Below are positions 3,075 to 15,313 of a stretch of DNA of 15,313 nucleotides, piece by piece (the stretch's first letter is position 1; every line of letters begins with the position of its first letter). Position numbers and translations under genes: made by a program. The notes below the pieces were generated by a model that saw only the letters and a program-made list of their open reading frames with translations, did not search any database and was not told the origin of the DNA. Origin of the DNA: Escherichia coli (GTDB lineage Bacteria > Pseudomonadota > Gammaproteobacteria > Enterobacterales > Enterobacteriaceae); the NCBI RefSeq assembly GCF_003334315.1, contig NZ_QOWR01000076.1. The stretch is one strand, 5' to 3'.

Positions 3075-3083
3075 TTCTCTCTT

Positions 3084-3108
3084 GCCGGGCATCTGCCCGG
3101 CTATTTCC
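3084..3108 (+). terminator. Probable intrinsic terminator downstream of nfsB
   Basis: Perfect GC-rich hairpin GCCGGGC-ATCT-GCCCGGC (3084..3101), 10 nt after the nfsB TAA stop, followed by a T-rich run (TATTTCCCC). Confidence 0.55.
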
Positions 3109-3133
3109 CCTCAGATTCTCCTGATTTGCATAA

Positions 3134-4429
<1,296 letters not shown>

Positions 4430-10701: not shown

Positions 10702-10719
10702 TTATTCTCTCCTGGAGTT

Positions 10720-10855
10720 AAAAGTCATACTCTAAATAATTCGAGTTGCAGGAAGGCGACAAGCGAGTGAATCCCCAGGAGCTTACATAAGTAAGTGACT
10801 GGGGTGAGCGAACGCAGACGCAGCACATGCAACTTGAAGTATGACGAGTATATTG
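10720..10855. repeat. ERIC (enterobacterial repetitive intergenic consensus) element in the cusC-cusF spacer
   Basis: The core contains exact matches to both classical ERIC primer sites: GTGAATCCCCAGGAGCTTACAT at 10767..10788 (reverse complement of ERIC1R) and AAGTAAGTGACTGGGGTGAGCG at 10789..10810 (ERIC2). Imperfect palindromic arms flank it (GTCATAC at 10724-10730, GTATGAC at 10839-10845). The outer boundaries are approximate. Confidence 0.85.
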
Positions 10856-10858
10856 CTG

Positions 10859-12232
10859 TCAACCGCCACCAAGTGCGGTATACAAAGAAATTTCGTTAAC
10901 CTGACGGGCATAATTCAGGTCGAGTAAAGTTTGTCGGGTTGCAAATAAAGAACGCTCGGCATCCAGCACTTCCAGATAACTTACTGCGCCGTGCTGATAT
11001 AATGCCCGCGCCCGTTGCAAAGTAATTTGCAGCGATGCCAGATAACGCTGCTGGGCGCTAATTTGATCGTTCAGGCTTTGACGTAATGCCAGCGCATCTG
11101 CCACTTCTTTAAAGGCGTTCTGGATTTTCTGTTCATAATTCACCACCGACTGCTGCTGGCGAATTTCGGCGATATCCAGATTGGCCTGGTTGCGTCCGGC
11201 ATTAAAAATGGGGATCTCAATTTTGGGTATAAAATTCCACATCCCGCTGCTGGCGTTAAATAATGACGATAGATCGCTACTGGCGGTCGATATTCCGCTG
11301 GTCAGGCTTATAGACGGAAAAAATGCCGCGCGTGCAGCGCCAATATTGGCATTAGCCGCCATTAACGCGTGTTCAGCTTCCATAATATCCGGGCGCTGCA
11401 ATAAGATTTGCGACGACAATCCCGCCGGTAATTTAACGCTTTGCAGGCTGTCGCTGTTTACTGTCTGCGCTTGCGGCAGCTTGCCGTAGCTTCCCAATAA
11501 CAGTTGCAATGCATTATTCGCCTGCGCCAGTTCCCCCTGACGTTTAGCGATGTCGCTGCGGGTACTTTCAATCACCCCGCGAGCCTGTTCCAGCGCCAGA
11601 ACATTACTGCTACCTGTCAACAGTTGTTTTTCGACAAACGCATATGACTGCTGATAATTACGCAGCGTTTCTTCGGCTATTTGCAATTGCGCATACGCTA
11701 GCTGCTGATTGAAATAACTTTGCGCGACATTAGAAACCAGCAAAATATGCACCGCGCGCTGGGCTTCCTCAGTGGCTAAATAATTTTGGCGCTCGGCTTC
11801 GCTCATGTTCTTTAAGCGACCGAAAAAATCGAGGTCAAAGCTGGCGTTAAGGCCGGTCGAAAACTCCCGTGTCGTGGCGGTATTCCCTTTAAGATTACCG
11901 CTCCAGCTGCCGCTGCCCTCGCCATTGAGCTGTGGGTAGCGGTCGGCATCGGTCAGACGATATTGCGCCCGTGCCTCCTGCACTTTCAGCGTCGCCATGC
12001 GCAAATCCCGATTATTCACCAGCGCCTCGCTAATCAGCGTCTTCACCTGATTATCAACAAAAAAGGTGCGCCAGCCCGCGTTCTGATAGTTATCTGCTGC
12101 GTTAACCAGGCCGTTCTGGCTGAGTGAGAACTGCTGCGGCACGGGCATTGCCGGACGCTGATAATCCGGTGCCAGTGAACAACCGGTTAGCGCAAGGGCC
12201 ACACAAAATGGCAGAAGTTTACAAGGAGACAT
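10859..12232 (-). CDS. cusC: CusC, outer-membrane channel lipoprotein of the Cus efflux system (TolC-like)
   Basis: 457-aa ORF with a lipoprotein signal and lipobox (MSPCKLLPFCVALALTGCSLAP). Outer-membrane-factor family sequence, divergent from cusR and first gene of the cusCFBA operon. Confidence 0.95.
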   Translation of the reverse strand: MSPCKLLPFCVALALTGCSLAPDYQRPAMPVPQQFSLSQNGLVNAADNYQNAGWRTFFVDNQVKTLISEALVNNRDLRMATLKVQEARAQYRLTDADRYPQLNGEGSGSWSGNLKGNTATTREFSTGLNASFDLDFFGRLKNMSEAERQNYLATEEAQRAVHILLVSNVAQSYFNQQLAYAQLQIAEETLRNYQQSYAFVEKQLLTGSSNVLALEQARGVIESTRSDIAKRQGELAQANNALQLLLGSYGKLPQAQTVNSDSLQSVKLPAGLSSQILLQRPDIMEAEHALMAANANIGAARAAFFPSISLTSGISTASSDLSSLFNASSGMWNFIPKIEIPIFNAGRNQANLDIAEIRQQQSVVNYEQKIQNAFKEVADALALRQSLNDQISAQQRYLASLQITLQRARALYQHGAVSYLEVLDAERSLFATRQTLLDLNYARQVNEISLYTALGGG

Positions 12233-12388: not shown

Positions 12389-13072
12389 ATGAAACTGTTG
12401 ATTGTCGAAGATGAAAAGAAAACCGGAGAATACTTGACCAAAGGGTTAACCGAAGCCGGTTTTGTGGTCGATTTGGCCGACAACGGGCTGAATGGCTACC
12501 ATCTGGCGATGACCGGTGATTATGATCTGATAATCCTCGATATTATGCTGCCGGACGTGAACGGCTGGGATATCGTGCGCATGTTACGCTCCGCCAATAA
12601 AGGGATGCCGATTCTGTTGCTTACCGCGCTTGGCACCATTGAACATCGCGTCAAGGGGCTGGAGTTGGGGGCAGATGACTACCTGGTGAAGCCATTCGCT
12701 TTTGCTGAACTGCTGGCGCGGGTGCGCACATTACTGCGGCGCGGGGCGGCGGTGATTATCGAAAGTCAGTTTCAGGTTGCCGATTTGATGGTCGATCTCG
12801 TCAGCCGCAAAGTCACCCGCAGCGGCACGCGCATCACTTTGACCAGTAAAGAGTTTACTCTGCTGGAGTTCTTCCTTCGCCATCAGGGCGAAGTGCTGCC
12901 CCGCTCGCTTATCGCCTCGCAGGTATGGGACATGAATTTTGACAGCGATACCAATGCTATTGATGTGGCGGTGAAGCGGCTGCGCGGCAAAATCGACAAC
13001 GACTTTGAGCCGAAGCTAATTCAGACCGTGCGCGGCGTGGGTTACATGCTTGAGGTGCCGGATGGTCAGTAA
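12389..13072 (+). CDS. cusR: CusR, OmpR-family response regulator of the CusS/CusR two-component system
   Basis: 227-aa ORF, GGAGG at 12380-12384. Receiver domain with the conserved phospho-acceptor context ([17 protein letters not shown]) and a C-terminal winged-helix domain ([21 protein letters not shown]...). Matches my recollection of E. coli CusR. Confidence 0.95.
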
Positions 13073-14510
13073 GCCATTTCAGCGCCCGTTTTCGCTGGCA
13101 ACCCGCCTGACCTTTTTTATCAGCCTGGCCACCATCGCGGCGTTTTTCGCCTTTGCATGGATCATGATCCACTCAGTAAAAGTTCATTTTGCCGAGCAGG
13201 ATATTAATGATTTAAAAGAGATTAGCGCCACCCTTGAACGGGTACTAAATCACCCTGACGAAACGCAAGCCCGACGCTTAATGACGCTGGAAGATATCGT
13301 CAGTGGTTATTCCAATGTGTTGATTTCCCTGGCAGATAGTCAGGGTAAAACGGTGTATCACTCCCCCGGTGCGCCGGATATCCGCGAGTTTACGCGTGAC
13401 GCCATACCCGATAAAGACGCTCAGGGTGGCGAGGTGTATCTCCTTTCCGGCCCGACGATGATGATGCCAGGCCACGGTCACGGGCATATGGAACACAGCA
13501 ACTGGCGGATGATTAACTTGCCGGTTGGCCCGTTGGTGGACGGCAAACCGATTTATACGCTCTACATCGCGCTTTCGATCGATTTTCATCTTCATTACAT
13601 AAATGATTTGATGAATAAACTTATTATGACCGCATCGGTAATCAGCATCCTGATCGTCTTTATCGTACTGTTGGCGGTACATAAAGGTCACGCGCCGATC
13701 CGCAGCGTCAGCCGTCAAATCCAGAATATTACCTCGAAAGATCTCGACGTTCGCCTCGACCCGCAGACCGTGCCGATTGAGCTGGAACAGCTGGTACTGT
13801 CGTTCAACCATATGATCGAGCGTATTGAGGATGTCTTTACCCGCCAGTCCAATTTCTCAGCGGATATCGCTCACGAAATTCGCACGCCGATTACCAATCT
13901 CATCACGCAAACGGAAATCGCCCTCAGCCAGTCTCGCAGCCAGAAGGAGCTGGAAGATGTGCTCTACTCTAATCTCGAAGAGCTGACGCGAATGGCGAAA
14001 ATGGTCAGCGATATGCTGTTTCTCGCTCAGGCCGATAACAACCAGCTAATCCCCGAAAAGAAAATGCTCAACCTGGCGGATGAAGTCGGCAAAGTGTTCG
14101 ATTTTTTCGAGGCGTTAGCGGAAGATCGCGGCGTGGAGTTGCGATTTGTTGGCGACAAATGTCAGGTTGCGGGCGATCCGCTGATGCTGCGTCGGGCGTT
14201 AAGCAACCTGCTTTCTAATGCCCTGCGTTATACGCCACCCAGTGAGGCTATTGTAGTGCGCTGCCAGACGGTCAATCATCAGGTGCAAGTTTCCGTCGAA
14301 AACCCCGGTACGCCCATTGCGCCCGAGCACTTACCGCGATTGTTTGACCGTTTCTATCGCGTTGACCCTTCCCGCCAGCGAAAAGGCGAAGGTAGCGGCA
14401 TTGGGCTGGCGATAGTGAAATCGATTGTTGTCGCGCATAAAGGCACGGTTGCAGTAACGTCAGATGCGCGGGGGACAAGGTTTGTGATTATGCTGCCAGA
14501 GAGAGAGTGA
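13062..14510 (+). CDS. cusS: CusS, copper/silver-sensing histidine kinase
   Basis: ATG at 13062 preceded by GAGG at 13052-13055, giving a 480-aa product ([41 protein letters not shown]...). Two transmembrane helices flank a periplasmic sensor domain, followed by HAMP, an H-box ([15 protein letters not shown]) and an ATPase domain ([13 protein letters not shown]). The start overlaps the cusR stop by 11 nt. The track's TTG at 13050 was rejected. Confidence 0.95.
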
Positions 14511-15246
14511 TTATTAAGTTCAAATTCAGGGCGTGGTGCATCACCTCCTGGTATTGTTGATCAACAAATTAGAGAAAAACTTATTAAACATATGAAATAT
14601 CGAAGGCTTTTATTTTTCAAAGTTTCACGAGATGTTTGTATATGAAACTTAGTTAAATCTGTGTTTCTTCCAATTGTAGATCACAATGCCCTTTCTAAAT
14701 TTTCATCGTTATAAACAAGCCATCTATCATATAAAGCAATGAATAATTTAATCGCGATTAATCATCATTAATTGTTATATTATTCACTCAATCTATTTAT
14801 CAAGTGAATTTGATAAATTCCTAATTTAAAATATCCACTATTGAGCCAGTATTTAACAACGTTAAGATGTGCAATGTGCAGATCATGTTATCAGGGTGGA
14901 GCGGTAGCATATATTTCTTATGCAATCATTCATTTTAATAATGTTAATTGGATTATTTATTGCTGTGAATAAAAATATATTATGAATATTGGTTTAACTT
15001 TACGTTTTTGTTACTCGTTGTGATATGCGTACCTGTCCTGAATAACGCCAAGAAACAAGAGGTTGAGCTTGTGATTATTTTTTTGACTGAACAGACACCC
15101 GTTTCTGTAAAGTAATATTTAAACAAAATTCTCACATAACCATAGCATTTTCTGTTCCTTCCCTAATAACGTCTGAAGTCGTCCCGCTTATCACATTATC
15201 CGCAGTTGTACGGTACGGATCATTATTCATTTTACTGGAGGTTGCT
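14511..15246. other. AT-rich non-coding spacer between cusS and the VgrG-like gene; likely promoter / xenogeneic-silencing region
   Basis: No ORF of 60 aa or more on either strand in the track. Two 60-nt lines I counted by hand (14761-14820 and 14941-15000) are each about 20% G+C, against roughly 50% in the flanking genes. Contains interleaved short palindromes at 14782-14820. Confidence 0.6.
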
Positions 15247-15313
15247 ATGTCAACCGGATTACGTTTCACACTGGAAGTGGACGGCCTGCCGCCGGATGCT
15301 TTTGCGGTGGTTT
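15247..15313 (+). CDS. vgrG: 5' end (22 codons) of a VgrG-like type VI secretion spike protein gene, truncated by the window edge
   Basis: ATG at 15247 preceded by GGAGG at 15237-15241 with a 5-nt spacer. The translation MSTGLRFTLEVDGLPPDAFAVV fits the N-terminal pattern of VgrG/gp27-like proteins as I recall it (compare V. cholerae VgrG1, which I recall as MATLAYSIEVEGLEDETLVV...). Only 22 residues are visible, so the family call is provisional. Confidence 0.5.
   Translation, partial: MSTGLRFTLEVDGLPPDAFAVV

What the first reader, a model, noticed from the sequence alone, without database searches (positions are those of the whole stretch)
14511..15313. Core-to-accessory junction: cusS is followed by an AT-rich spacer and a VgrG-like gene start
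As I recall E. coli K-12, cusS is followed in the same orientation by nfrB, a membrane glycosyltransferase, which I would expect to begin with a hydrophobic transmembrane segment. Here the next gene instead begins MSTGLRFTLEVDGLPPDAFAVV, a VgrG-like N-terminus, after a 736-bp spacer of strikingly low G+C. That is the signature of a horizontally acquired T6SS vgrG / Rhs-type island abutting the cus locus. Such islands usually carry variable effector-immunity cargo downstream of vgrG, which is where anything novel would be; none of it is inside this window.
Basis: partly seen in the sequence, partly recalled or inferred. Interest (0 to 1): 0.6.

Follow-up and report, generated by a model that had tools for sequence, protein, structure and literature searches.

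The report
Known vgrG–Rhs island beside cusS
The AT-rich stretch and gene start after cusS are the left edge of a well-known E. coli type VI secretion "vgrG–EagR–Rhs" toxin island that about half of all E. coli strains carry, and in this strain's lineage the island has lost its toxin, so the finding is real but ordinary.

Summary
cusS stops at 14510, a 736-bp spacer of 31% GC follows (6 SD below the rest of the window), and a gene with a strong Shine-Dalgarno site starts at 15247. In genomes about 100% identical to the window, that gene is a 633-aa VgrG with gp27, gp5-OB and gp5-C domains. It is followed by a DUF1795/DcrB (EagR) chaperone gene, a prePAAR–PAAR–Rhs gene, ISAs1, and then nfrB.

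About 7.97 kb replaces about 15 bp of the K-12-type cusS–nfrB junction. The left breakpoint lies in the last codons of cusS, so the whole spacer belongs to the island. Of 5,426 complete E. coli genomes, about 2,700–2,800 carry the island, 2,326 have the empty site and 153 have a vgrG-less remnant.

The locus is already published as Rhs "locus 4" (Jackson 2009), rhsW3 in E. coli W, and the vgrG-2/vgrG1 orphan locus Z0700–Z0707 of O157:H7 EDL933. In the window's lineage the island is decayed. The Rhs gene is cut at codon 1135 next to ISAs1, with no toxin or immunity gene. The T6SS cluster examined lacks tssK, tssL and tssH.

The parts
13062..14510 (+). cusS (Cu/Ag sensor kinase), the last core gene. 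Its final ~25 nt (14485-14510) are allele-specific and co-vary with the island.
   Evidence: The annotated start corresponds to L005 697. Nucleotide homology to empty-site genomes ends at 14485. The CusS tail is VIMLPERE* here, VIILPA* in empty sites, VLPERG* in O157 and KLPEKG* in the divergent allele.
14485..14524 (.). Left junction of the island: the interval within which homology to the empty site is lost.
   Evidence: BLAST of the occupied site against the empty site: L005 1-2120 and 10106-12600 match, and 7,985 bp between them do not. Junction sequences are shown. No flanking direct repeat was seen.
14511..14793 (+). Proximal spacer, 29% GC, specific to this locus and single-copy.
   Evidence: A distant-mode BLAST finds it in 2,802 genomes, median one place per genome, always unannotated. 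It is absent from the RhsE leader. O157:H7 lacks about 14534-14689. The divergent allele is about 58-82% identical here.
14794..15246 (+). Distal leader of vgrG, 33% GC, shared with the vgrG(vgrE)/RhsE locus downstream of yncH.
   Evidence: Homology to locus 6 begins at query position 284 (window 14794) and runs into vgrG. Identity is 72-91% in the leader. K-12 RhsE retains this leader to about 15190.
14791..14915 (+). Best-conserved block of the leader. It contains the only + strand sigma-70-like match (TTATCA-16-TATATT, 14888-14915). It is a candidate promoter/operator; this is inferred, not shown.
   Evidence: Identity is 98%/88%/82% in 50-nt bins against the divergent locus-4 allele, whose other spacer bins are 54-82%. 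Identity to locus 6 is 91%. The promoter scan is, and its hit count is not above shuffles. There is no significant RNA structure (z = -1.4/-1.7).
15238..15242 (+). Shine-Dalgarno GGAGG, 4 nt upstream of the vgrG ATG.
   Evidence: Read directly from the sequence. It is invariant in all seven aligned leaders.
15247..15313 (+). First 22 codons of vgrG (633 aa in full); the gene runs off the window.
   Evidence: Translation. The full gene is L005 2882-4783, with TIGR03361 at 620 bits and Pfam Phage_GPD + Phage_base_V + Gp5_trimer_C.

Best explanation
Window 14511-15313 is the left end of the E. coli Rhs element that sits between cusS and nfrB. This element is published as Jackson's Rhs 'locus 4' (Clade IV rhs), rhsW3 in E. 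coli W, and the vgrG-2 / vgrG1 / vgrGO1 orphan locus Z0700-Z0707 in O157:H7.

The island is about 8 kb in this lineage and up to about 17 kb elsewhere. It consists of an AT-rich leader, vgrG, an EagR (DUF1795/DcrB) chaperone gene, a prePAAR-PAAR-Rhs effector gene with a strain-specific C-terminal toxin, the cognate immunity gene, arrays of orphan rhs tips with immunity genes, and a terminal ISAs1 (H-repeat) element.

How intact copies work is inferred from homologous systems, not tested here. VgrG trimers form the T6SS spike. The VgrG C-terminal region, which differs from that of its paralogues, recruits the PAAR domain of the cognate Rhs. EagR shields the N-terminal transmembrane helices of Rhs. 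The YD-repeat shell encloses the toxin, which is released by autoproteolysis and delivered into neighbouring bacteria. The immunity gene protects siblings.

The 736-bp spacer is the island's own untranslated leader. The distal 453 bp is a module shared with the vgrG/RhsE locus and most likely carries the promoter. Its low GC makes it a probable H-NS target that keeps the island silent in the laboratory. Both of these points are inferred.

In the lineage the window comes from, the module is a decaying remnant. rhs is truncated at codon 1135 by a deletion adjacent to ISAs1. There is no toxin tip or immunity gene. The aspV-linked T6SS cluster has lost tssK, tssL and tssH.
For: Identity of the gene: VgrG domains above curated cut-offs; DcrB, PF08786, 1.3e-27. 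One search also shows YD repeats (1.2e-64) and a weak PAAR match in the Rhs protein. One search shows the prePAAR motif AARLGDEIQH followed by hydrophobic helices.

Island boundaries and size.

Presence/absence polymorphism: 2,694 genomes with at least 80% of window 14300-15313; 2,802 with the proximal spacer; 2,326 empty junctions; 153 remnants.

Variable cargo in intact copies: searches (restriction-endonuclease-fold toxin, SUKH-3; Imm26, three orphan rhs fragments, a zincin toxin), and (O157:H7).

Compositional mosaic typical of Rhs elements: leader 31%, vgrG 57%, rhs core 61%, toxin tip 37%, immunity gene 28%, ISAs1 segment 41% GC.

Prior description: PMC2935791 Table 3, locus 4 nfrB/cusS with a Clade IV rhs. 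PMC3032704 lists rhsW3 at b0570-b0569. PMC7216683, PMC5363993 and PMC12981562 describe z0707 vgrG, z0706 EagR, z0705 RhsF and z0702 RhsG with a metallopeptidase tip. That gene order matches the O157:H7 locus.

Mechanism in homologues: vgrGO1 and eagR are required for Rhs-CT delivery in E. coli (Ma et al. 2017b, as summarised in PMC6730261). The VgrG-EagR-Rhs complex and autocleavage are described in PMC8636562.

Silence: Z0706 had 0 reads in 10 of 11 conditions in EDL933 (PMC4048457). H-NS represses the EHEC T6SS cluster (PMC5363993).

Decay in this lineage: (rhs ends at nt 3405 joined to the ISAs1 segment; the ORF leaves the intact sequence at residue 1135 and has no DPxGL motif or toxin). 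Searches show a 6.1-kb deletion from tssJ to tssA relative to an intact cluster.
Against: Only 67 nt of vgrG lie inside the window. Everything downstream is read from genomes that match the window at about 100% (H31 and H1), not from the source itself, which could differ.

H-NS binding and the promoter position are not shown for this leader. The promoter-like match count in the spacer is not above the shuffle expectation.

I examined only one T6SS cluster of strain L6-21. A second, intact cluster elsewhere in that genome is not excluded.

The direction of the event (gain versus loss) is not resolved.
Confidence: 0.93

Rival explanations
1. The island is an old resident of the E. coli chromosome, and the K-12-type empty junction arose by deletion. 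On this reading the junction marks repeated loss rather than a horizontal insertion.
For: Two locus-4 alleles share the same borders while their spacers are only about 55-80% identical and their flanks are 96-99% identical, which implies long residence. A vgrG-less remnant with the island-type cusS tail (PERE*) and the same ISAs1 border exists in 153 genomes. Different ISAs1-adjacent deletions show ongoing erosion.
Against: The empty site carries about 15-26 bp (CCGCTTAATCCTTCA) and a cusS tail that are not a subset of any occupied sequence. The strong compositional mosaic and Jackson et al.'s placement of a Clade IV rhs only at this position fit acquisition. The two histories are not mutually exclusive: one gain could be followed by many losses.
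Confidence: 0.3
2. In the source strain the island is a working T6SS effector module delivering an Rhs toxin.
For: vgrG and the eagR-like gene are intact and 99% identical to those of strains with complete Rhs genes.
Against: Rhs lacks the last ~465 residues, including the cleavage motif and the toxin. No immunity gene is present. The aspV T6SS cluster lacks tssK, tssL, tssH and vasI, its own tssI is frameshifted, and tssJ is truncated.
Confidence: 0.05
3. The 736-bp spacer encodes a product of its own, either a small protein or a structured or small RNA, rather than being a leader.
For: ORFs of 43-51 codons exist on both strands. A block of about 125 bp is conserved.
Against: The 43-codon ORF (14841-14972) is frameshifted by a 1-nt indel in locus-6 copies and in the divergent locus-4 allele. 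The minus-strand ORFs are interrupted by 8-11-nt indels. No Rfam match comes near a gathering score. Folding z-scores range from -1.7 to +1.0. No terminator-like site is present.
Confidence: 0.04
4. The gene at 15247 is nfrB or another ordinary core gene.
For: None.
Against: The VgrG domain hits. nfrB lies about 7.4 kb further downstream in matching genomes.
Confidence: 0

Closest known systems
E. coli O157:H7 EDL933 vgrG-2 (also called vgrG1) orphan locus Z0700-Z0707, which is Rhs 'locus 4' of Jackson et al. 2009 and rhsW3 of E. coli W
   Same: The chromosomal site is the same (between cusS and nfrB). The gene order is the same: leader-vgrG-DUF1795/EagR-PAAR-Rhs-...-ISAs1. The cusS-to-vgrG junction is 94-100% identical.
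   Different: The window's lineage has lost the Rhs C-terminus, toxin, immunity gene and orphan tips. O157 lacks about 156 bp of the proximal spacer.
RhsE element / vgrE locus of E. coli (yncH-vgrG-rhsE; Jackson locus 6)
   Same: It shares the distal 453-bp leader (72-91% identity) and the first ~1.5 kb of vgrG, of which about 1.1 kb is near 100% identical. It also ends in ISAs1-type H-repeats.
   Different: It sits at a different chromosomal site and has a different VgrG C-terminal region (703 aa against 633 aa). It has no DUF1795 gene, and its Rhs is of the 'RHS element core protein' type, a different clade. The proximal 283 bp of the spacer is not shared.
VgrG-EagR-Rhs effector modules characterised in Photorhabdus laumondii (Rhs1/Tre23), Serratia marcescens and Pseudomonas (prePAAR effectors with Eag chaperones)
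   Same: The three-gene logic is the same: a DUF1795 chaperone, a prePAAR motif plus transmembrane helices plus PAAR at the Rhs N-terminus, and a YD-repeat cage.
   Different: They are homologues in other genera. No experiment has been done on this exact copy, and this copy is truncated.

Membership tests
VgrG / TssI (T6SS spike) | gp27-like domain, gp5 OB-fold and gp5 C-terminal beta-helix, with a family HMM score above the curated cut-off | tested here: met
   TIGR03361 scores 620.4 bits (cut-off 186) and TIGR01646 438 bits. Pfam gives Phage_GPD 4.8e-75, Phage_base_V 1.4e-14 and Gp5_trimer_C 1.3e-21. The test used the full gene from a genome about 100% identical to the window; only 22 codons lie inside the window.
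Rhs element (composite described by Hill; Jackson locus 4) | Located between nfrB and cusS | tested here: met
   Searches agree with PMC2935791 Table 3.
Rhs element (composite described by Hill; Jackson locus 4) | GC-rich YD-repeat core, AT-rich C-terminal tip with a downstream immunity gene, orphan tips, and an H-repeat (ISAs1) | tested here: inconclusive
   The core (61% GC, YD repeats 1.2e-64) and ISAs1 (413 bits) are present in the window's lineage. The tip, immunity gene and orphan tips are absent there but present in other strains. This lineage therefore holds a truncated member.
prePAAR effector with Eag (DUF1795) chaperone | AARxxDxxxH prePAAR motif, N-terminal transmembrane helices, a PAAR domain, and an adjacent DUF1795 gene | tested here: met
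   AARLGDEIQH lies at residues 54-63, followed by a long hydrophobic stretch (helices judged by eye, with no TM predictor run). The PAAR match is at residues 263-305, E = 1.5e-11 but below the equivalog cut-off. DcrB PF08786 scores 1.3e-27 for the adjacent gene.
Functional T6SS effector-immunity module in the source lineage | Complete Rhs with cleavage motif and toxin, a cognate immunity gene, and a complete T6SS core (tssA-M) | tested here: not met
   Rhs is truncated at residue 1135 and no immunity gene is present. A 6.1-kb deletion removes tssK, tssL, tssH and vasI from the aspV cluster of strain L6-21. The rest of that genome was not scanned.
Classical integrative genomic island | Integrase, tRNA attachment site and flanking direct repeats | tested here: not met
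   No integrase or tRNA is annotated at the borders. No direct repeat is present at the junctions. The only mobility gene is ISAs1 at the right end. The feature is an island in the sense of a presence/absence polymorphism with deviant composition, not this class.
H-NS-silenced xenogeneic leader | H-NS occupancy and derepression in an hns mutant | not testable with these tools
   Support is indirect only: 31% GC, near-zero expression of Z0706 in EDL933, and H-NS repression of the main EHEC T6SS cluster.

The most novel reading that the evidence does not exclude
No intrinsic terminator is predicted between cusS and vgrG, nor at the empty site, and the island begins at the cusS stop codon in the same orientation. 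Read-through from the CusR-activated cusRS transcript could therefore couple copper/silver stress to expression of the orphan vgrG-eagR-rhs module. The conserved block at 14791-14915 would then act as a second, dedicated control point. This would be an undescribed metal-responsive input into T6SS effector loading in E. coli.
Probability: 0.04. Interest if true: 0.4.

Novelty: already known. Interest (0 to 1): 0.1.

Why it matters
It matters little beyond correct annotation. The result shows that a striking compositional break after cusS is the border of a catalogued Rhs/vgrG element, and it fixes that border to the last codons of cusS.

It also gives population frequencies from 5,426 complete genomes: about 50% occupied, 43% empty and 3% remnant. 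The copy in this lineage is a toxin-less remnant in a genome whose examined T6SS cluster is itself broken.

The only mildly useful by-products are a conserved block of about 125 bp in an otherwise fast-evolving leader, which is a candidate promoter/operator for orphan vgrG islands, and evidence for sequence exchange between the two orphan vgrG loci.

Tried and rejected
**Rfam.** A permissive E-value scan of 14400-15313 gave only three hits at 18-24 bits, far below their gathering scores. I rejected these as chance.

**Small ORFs in the spacer.** They are not conserved. Indels break them in paralogous and allelic copies.

**RNA structure of the conserved block and putative 5' UTR.** Folding z-scores ranged from -1.7 to +1.0, so there is no support for structure.

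**Repeats in the spacer.** Only one 13-nt two-copy match and no inverted repeats were found. No target-site duplication is present at the island borders.

**Terminator after cusS.** None is predicted at the occupied or the empty site.

**Search for the conserved leader 20-mer in one genome per species.** There was a single hit, on a MAG contig labelled Citrobacter sp. It is in fact an Escherichia-like yncG/RhsE locus. The leader therefore seems confined to Escherichia, and no material for covariation analysis was obtained.

**Possible diverged copy of the conserved block in the vgrG-less remnant L003.** The local alignment score was 44, against shuffles of 32.5 ± 4.3 with a maximum of 53. This is not significant.

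**Literature search pairing cusS with vgrG/Rhs.** It returned nothing relevant. The locus was found under nfrB and under locus-tag names instead.

**Pfam on the Rhs protein.** The job could not be submitted because the queue was full. NCBIfam was used instead.

Full report
**1. The observation**

The window is E. coli chromosome: ybdK-ybdJ-ybdF-nfsB-ybdG-pheP-cusABFC-cusRS. cusS ends with TGA at 14508-14510. The next start codon with a ribosome-binding site (GGAGG at 15238-15242) is the ATG at 15247, so the spacer is exactly 736 bp.

The spacer's GC content is 31.4%. All other 736-bp windows of the sequence average 51.9% (sd 3.3%, minimum 45.0%), giving z = -6.2. The other intergenic regions are 43-46% GC. 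The 22 in-window codons read MSTGLRFTLEVDGLPPDAFAVV.

**2. What the gene is**

The last 1,014 bases of the window are 100% identical to E. coli 13C1065T. The whole 15,313-base window is about 100% identical to eight genomes, the best being strain L6-21. In both genomes the ORF starting at window 15247 is a 633-aa protein annotated as a T6SS tip protein VgrG.

I tested the full-length sequence directly. TIGR03361 (TssI/VgrG) scores 620 bits against a cut-off of 186. Pfam finds Phage_GPD (gp27-like, 4.8e-75), Phage_base_V (gp5 OB, 1.4e-14) and Gp5_trimer_C (1.3e-21).

**3. What follows it**

In L6-21 and 13C1065T the order is as follows:
- vgrG
- a 153-aa DcrB-related protein
- a PAAR/Rhs pseudogene
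- an ISAs1 transposase gene
- nfrB (frameshifted), then nfrA and ybcH

The 153-aa protein matches Pfam DcrB at 1.3e-27. This is the DUF1795/Eag chaperone fold. The Rhs protein has YD repeats (1.2e-64) and a PAAR segment. Its N-terminus carries the prePAAR motif AARLGDEIQH followed by long hydrophobic helices. That is the arrangement that needs an Eag chaperone.

Other strains have a complete Rhs protein of about 1,600 aa at this site, with different toxin tips and immunity genes:
- **TW08637:** a restriction-endonuclease-fold toxin with a small downstream ORF, plus a SUKH-3 protein.
- **B-766:** an Imm26-linked tip, three orphan rhs fragments and a zincin toxin.
- **CUVET20-416:** another tip.
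- **O157:H7:** an Rhs gene plus an orphan zincin-metallopeptidase tip.

All of these end in ISAs1. The compositional mosaic is the classical Rhs-element pattern: leader 31%, vgrG 57%, rhs core 61%, tip 37%, immunity gene 28%, ISAs1 segment 41% GC.

**4. The insertion point**

I compared the occupied site (L005) with an empty site (L004, strain EcPF5, where cusS is directly followed by nfrB). Nucleotide homology stops at window 14485 and resumes about 140 bp upstream of nfrB. On this comparison 7,985 bp in the occupied site stand against 26 bp in the empty site.

At the protein level CusS still aligns through ...LP, so the effective replacement is about 7.97 kb for about 15 bp. CusS ends ...VIMLPERE* here and ...VIILPA* in empty sites. 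O157 has ...PERG* and a divergent allele has ...PEKG*.

The whole 736-bp spacer is therefore island DNA. The core/accessory boundary is at the cusS stop codon, not near vgrG. There are no flanking direct repeats, no integrase and no tRNA. The right border lies just beyond ISAs1 and is the same in all strains examined.

**5. How common it is**

Counts among 5,426 complete E. coli genomes:

| State | Genomes | Source |
|---|---|---|
| At least 80% of window 14300-15313 in one place | 2,694 | |
| Locus-specific proximal spacer present at any identity | 2,802 | |
| Empty cusS-nfrB junction (includes K-12 derivatives and Nissle 1917) | 2,326 | |
| vgrG-less remnant, bounded by the same cusS tail and ISAs1 but with unrelated cargo (an HNH-fold tip, three beta-propeller proteins, a PAAR-like protein) | 153 | |

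This is a common accessory polymorphism.

**6. Anatomy of the spacer**

The proximal 283 bp (14511-14793, 29% GC) occurs only at this locus, once per genome. It is partly dispensable, because O157:H7 lacks about 14534-14689.

From 14794 onward, the leader and the first ~1.5 kb of vgrG are shared with the vgrG (vgrE)/RhsE locus downstream of yncH. K-12, which has the empty cusS site, keeps this leader at its truncated RhsE.

Leader identity between the two loci is 72-91%. The first ~1.1 kb of vgrG is near 100% identical. The VgrG C-terminal ~125 residues are unrelated.

A divergent locus-4 allele (91 genomes; example CUVET20-416) has flanks 96-99% identical to the window but a spacer only about 55-80% identical. 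The exception is 14791-14915, which is 82-98% identical. This block contains the only + strand sigma-70-like match (TTATCA-16-TATATT, 14888-14915). However, the number of such matches in the spacer is not above the shuffle expectation.

I found no conserved small ORF, no Rfam family, no significant RNA structure, no repeats and no terminator. The exact core of the block occurs in only one other species-representative genome, an Escherichia-like RhsE contig.

My reading is that the spacer is the island's promoter-bearing, probably H-NS-bound leader. This is inferred. The indirect support is its composition, the near-zero expression of Z0706 in 10 of 11 conditions in EDL933 (PMC4048457), and H-NS repression of the EHEC T6SS cluster (PMC5363993).

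**7. State of the island in this lineage**

The L6-21 rhs aligns with intact genes up to nt 3405 and is then joined directly to the ISAs1 segment. The ORF departs from the intact sequence at residue 1135 and stops at residue 1156. It never reaches the DPxGL autocleavage motif or a toxin, and no immunity gene follows.

The left end of ISAs1 (CAGGGAAAGATCA...) abuts a different sequence in each of four strains, which indicates independent IS-adjacent deletions.

The T6SS cluster next to tRNA-Asp/dnaQ in L6-21 has a 6.1-kb deletion that removes most of tssJ and all of tssK, tssL (icmH), tssH and vasI. This is relative to an intact cluster in strain 755. Its own tssI is frameshifted.

Unless a second cluster exists elsewhere, which I did not check, the intact vgrG and eagR genes here have neither a payload nor a machine.

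**8. Comparison with what is known**

The locus is already catalogued:
- **Jackson et al. 2009** list it as Rhs locus 4 (nfrB/cusS) and note that it holds a Clade IV rhs (PMC2935791).
- **The E. coli W genome paper** lists rhsW3 and EcolC_3079 at b0570-b0569 (PMC3032704).
- **In EDL933** it is the vgrG-2 (or vgrG1) orphan locus Z0700-Z0707, with EagR (z0706), RhsF (z0705) and an orphan RhsG with a metallopeptidase tip (PMC7216683, PMC5363993, PMC12981562). This matches the gene order I see in O157:H7 strain Z1834.

For the mechanism, vgrGO1 and eagR are reported as needed for Rhs-CT delivery in E. coli (Ma et al. 2017b, as summarised in PMC6730261). The structural model of VgrG-EagR-Rhs loading and autocleavage comes from Photorhabdus (PMC8636562).

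**9. Verdict**

The feature is an already known, very common E. coli Rhs/vgrG element, and the copy in this lineage is degenerate. Interest is low (0.1).

The least ordinary points are listed under things noticed in passing:
- the conserved leader block
- the near-identity of the vgrG 5' regions at two loci, set against their diverged leaders, which suggests gene conversion
- the allele-specific CusS tails

Noticed in passing
window 15247 onward; L005 2882-4000 vs L008 9477-10600: The first ~1.1 kb of vgrG is about 100% identical between the cusS locus (strain L6-21) and the yncH/RhsE locus (strain AR_0114), while the leaders immediately upstream are only 72-91% identical. The divergent locus-4 allele (L013) also carries locus-6-type indels in its distal leader. 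This pattern suggests gene conversion between the two orphan vgrG loci.
   Followed up: partly
window 14485-14510: The last ~8 codons of cusS differ by locus state: VIMLPERE* (window), VIVLPERG* (O157), MIKLPEKG* (divergent allele) and VIILPA* (empty site). The rest of cusS is 96-97% identical. The island border therefore reshapes the C-terminus of the CusS kinase.
   Followed up: partly
window 14791-14915: This block of about 125 bp is 82-98% conserved between alleles whose surrounding spacer is 54-82% identical, and 91% conserved against the RhsE leader. It contains TTATCA-16-TATATT and is a candidate promoter/operator for orphan vgrG islands. No RNA structure signal was found.
   Followed up: partly
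L009 11920-12021 (NZ_CP123963.1 about 3671920) vs L015 7225-13332: In strain L6-21, the genome about 100% identical to the window, a 6.1-kb deletion in the aspV-linked T6SS cluster removes most of tssJ and all of tssK, tssL/icmH, tssH and vasI. The cluster's own tssI is frameshifted and its Rhs lacks the N-terminus.
   Followed up: yes
L005 8690-8720; L006 about 25610; L013 about 21060; L007 about 32480: The left end of the terminal ISAs1 element (CAGGGAAAGATCA...) is joined to a different rhs or tip sequence in each of four strains. This indicates independent IS-adjacent deletions that erode the cargo from the right.
   Followed up: partly
L003 6212-11150 (NZ_OZ392470.1): 153 genomes have a vgrG-less cassette between the same cusS tail and ISAs1. 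It holds an HNH/EndoVII-fold toxin fragment, three WD40/beta-propeller proteins, a PAAR-like protein and a small ORF, and it is unrelated at the DNA level to the four sampled islands. About 100 bp past the cusS stop there is a weak, non-significant resemblance to the conserved leader block.
   Followed up: partly
L005 10248-12484; L001 28313-30549: nfrB, the phage N4 receptor glycosyltransferase gene immediately downstream of the island, is annotated as frameshifted in both genomes closest to the window.
   Followed up: no
window 10702-10858 (cusF-cusC gap) and cusC 10859-12232: Two allelic forms of the cusC/cusF junction exist. In the window, TW08637 and 13C1065T, cusC is 1,374 bp with a 157-bp gap to cusF. 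In EcPF5, CB7286, B-766, CUVET20-416 and O157, cusC is 1,383 bp with a 23-bp gap.
   Followed up: no
L014 (DXKH01000108.1): A MAG contig labelled Citrobacter sp. carries an Escherichia-type yncG (92-96% identical to E. coli) and the core of the vgrG leader block. It is probably a binning or labelling issue, or a near-Escherichia lineage.
   Followed up: partly
L001 7697-8665 vs window about 3075-3163: Strain 13C1065T has an IS903B between nfsB and ybdG, and an IS421 near hokE, that the window lacks. It is otherwise identical at the cusS-vgrG junction.
   Followed up: no
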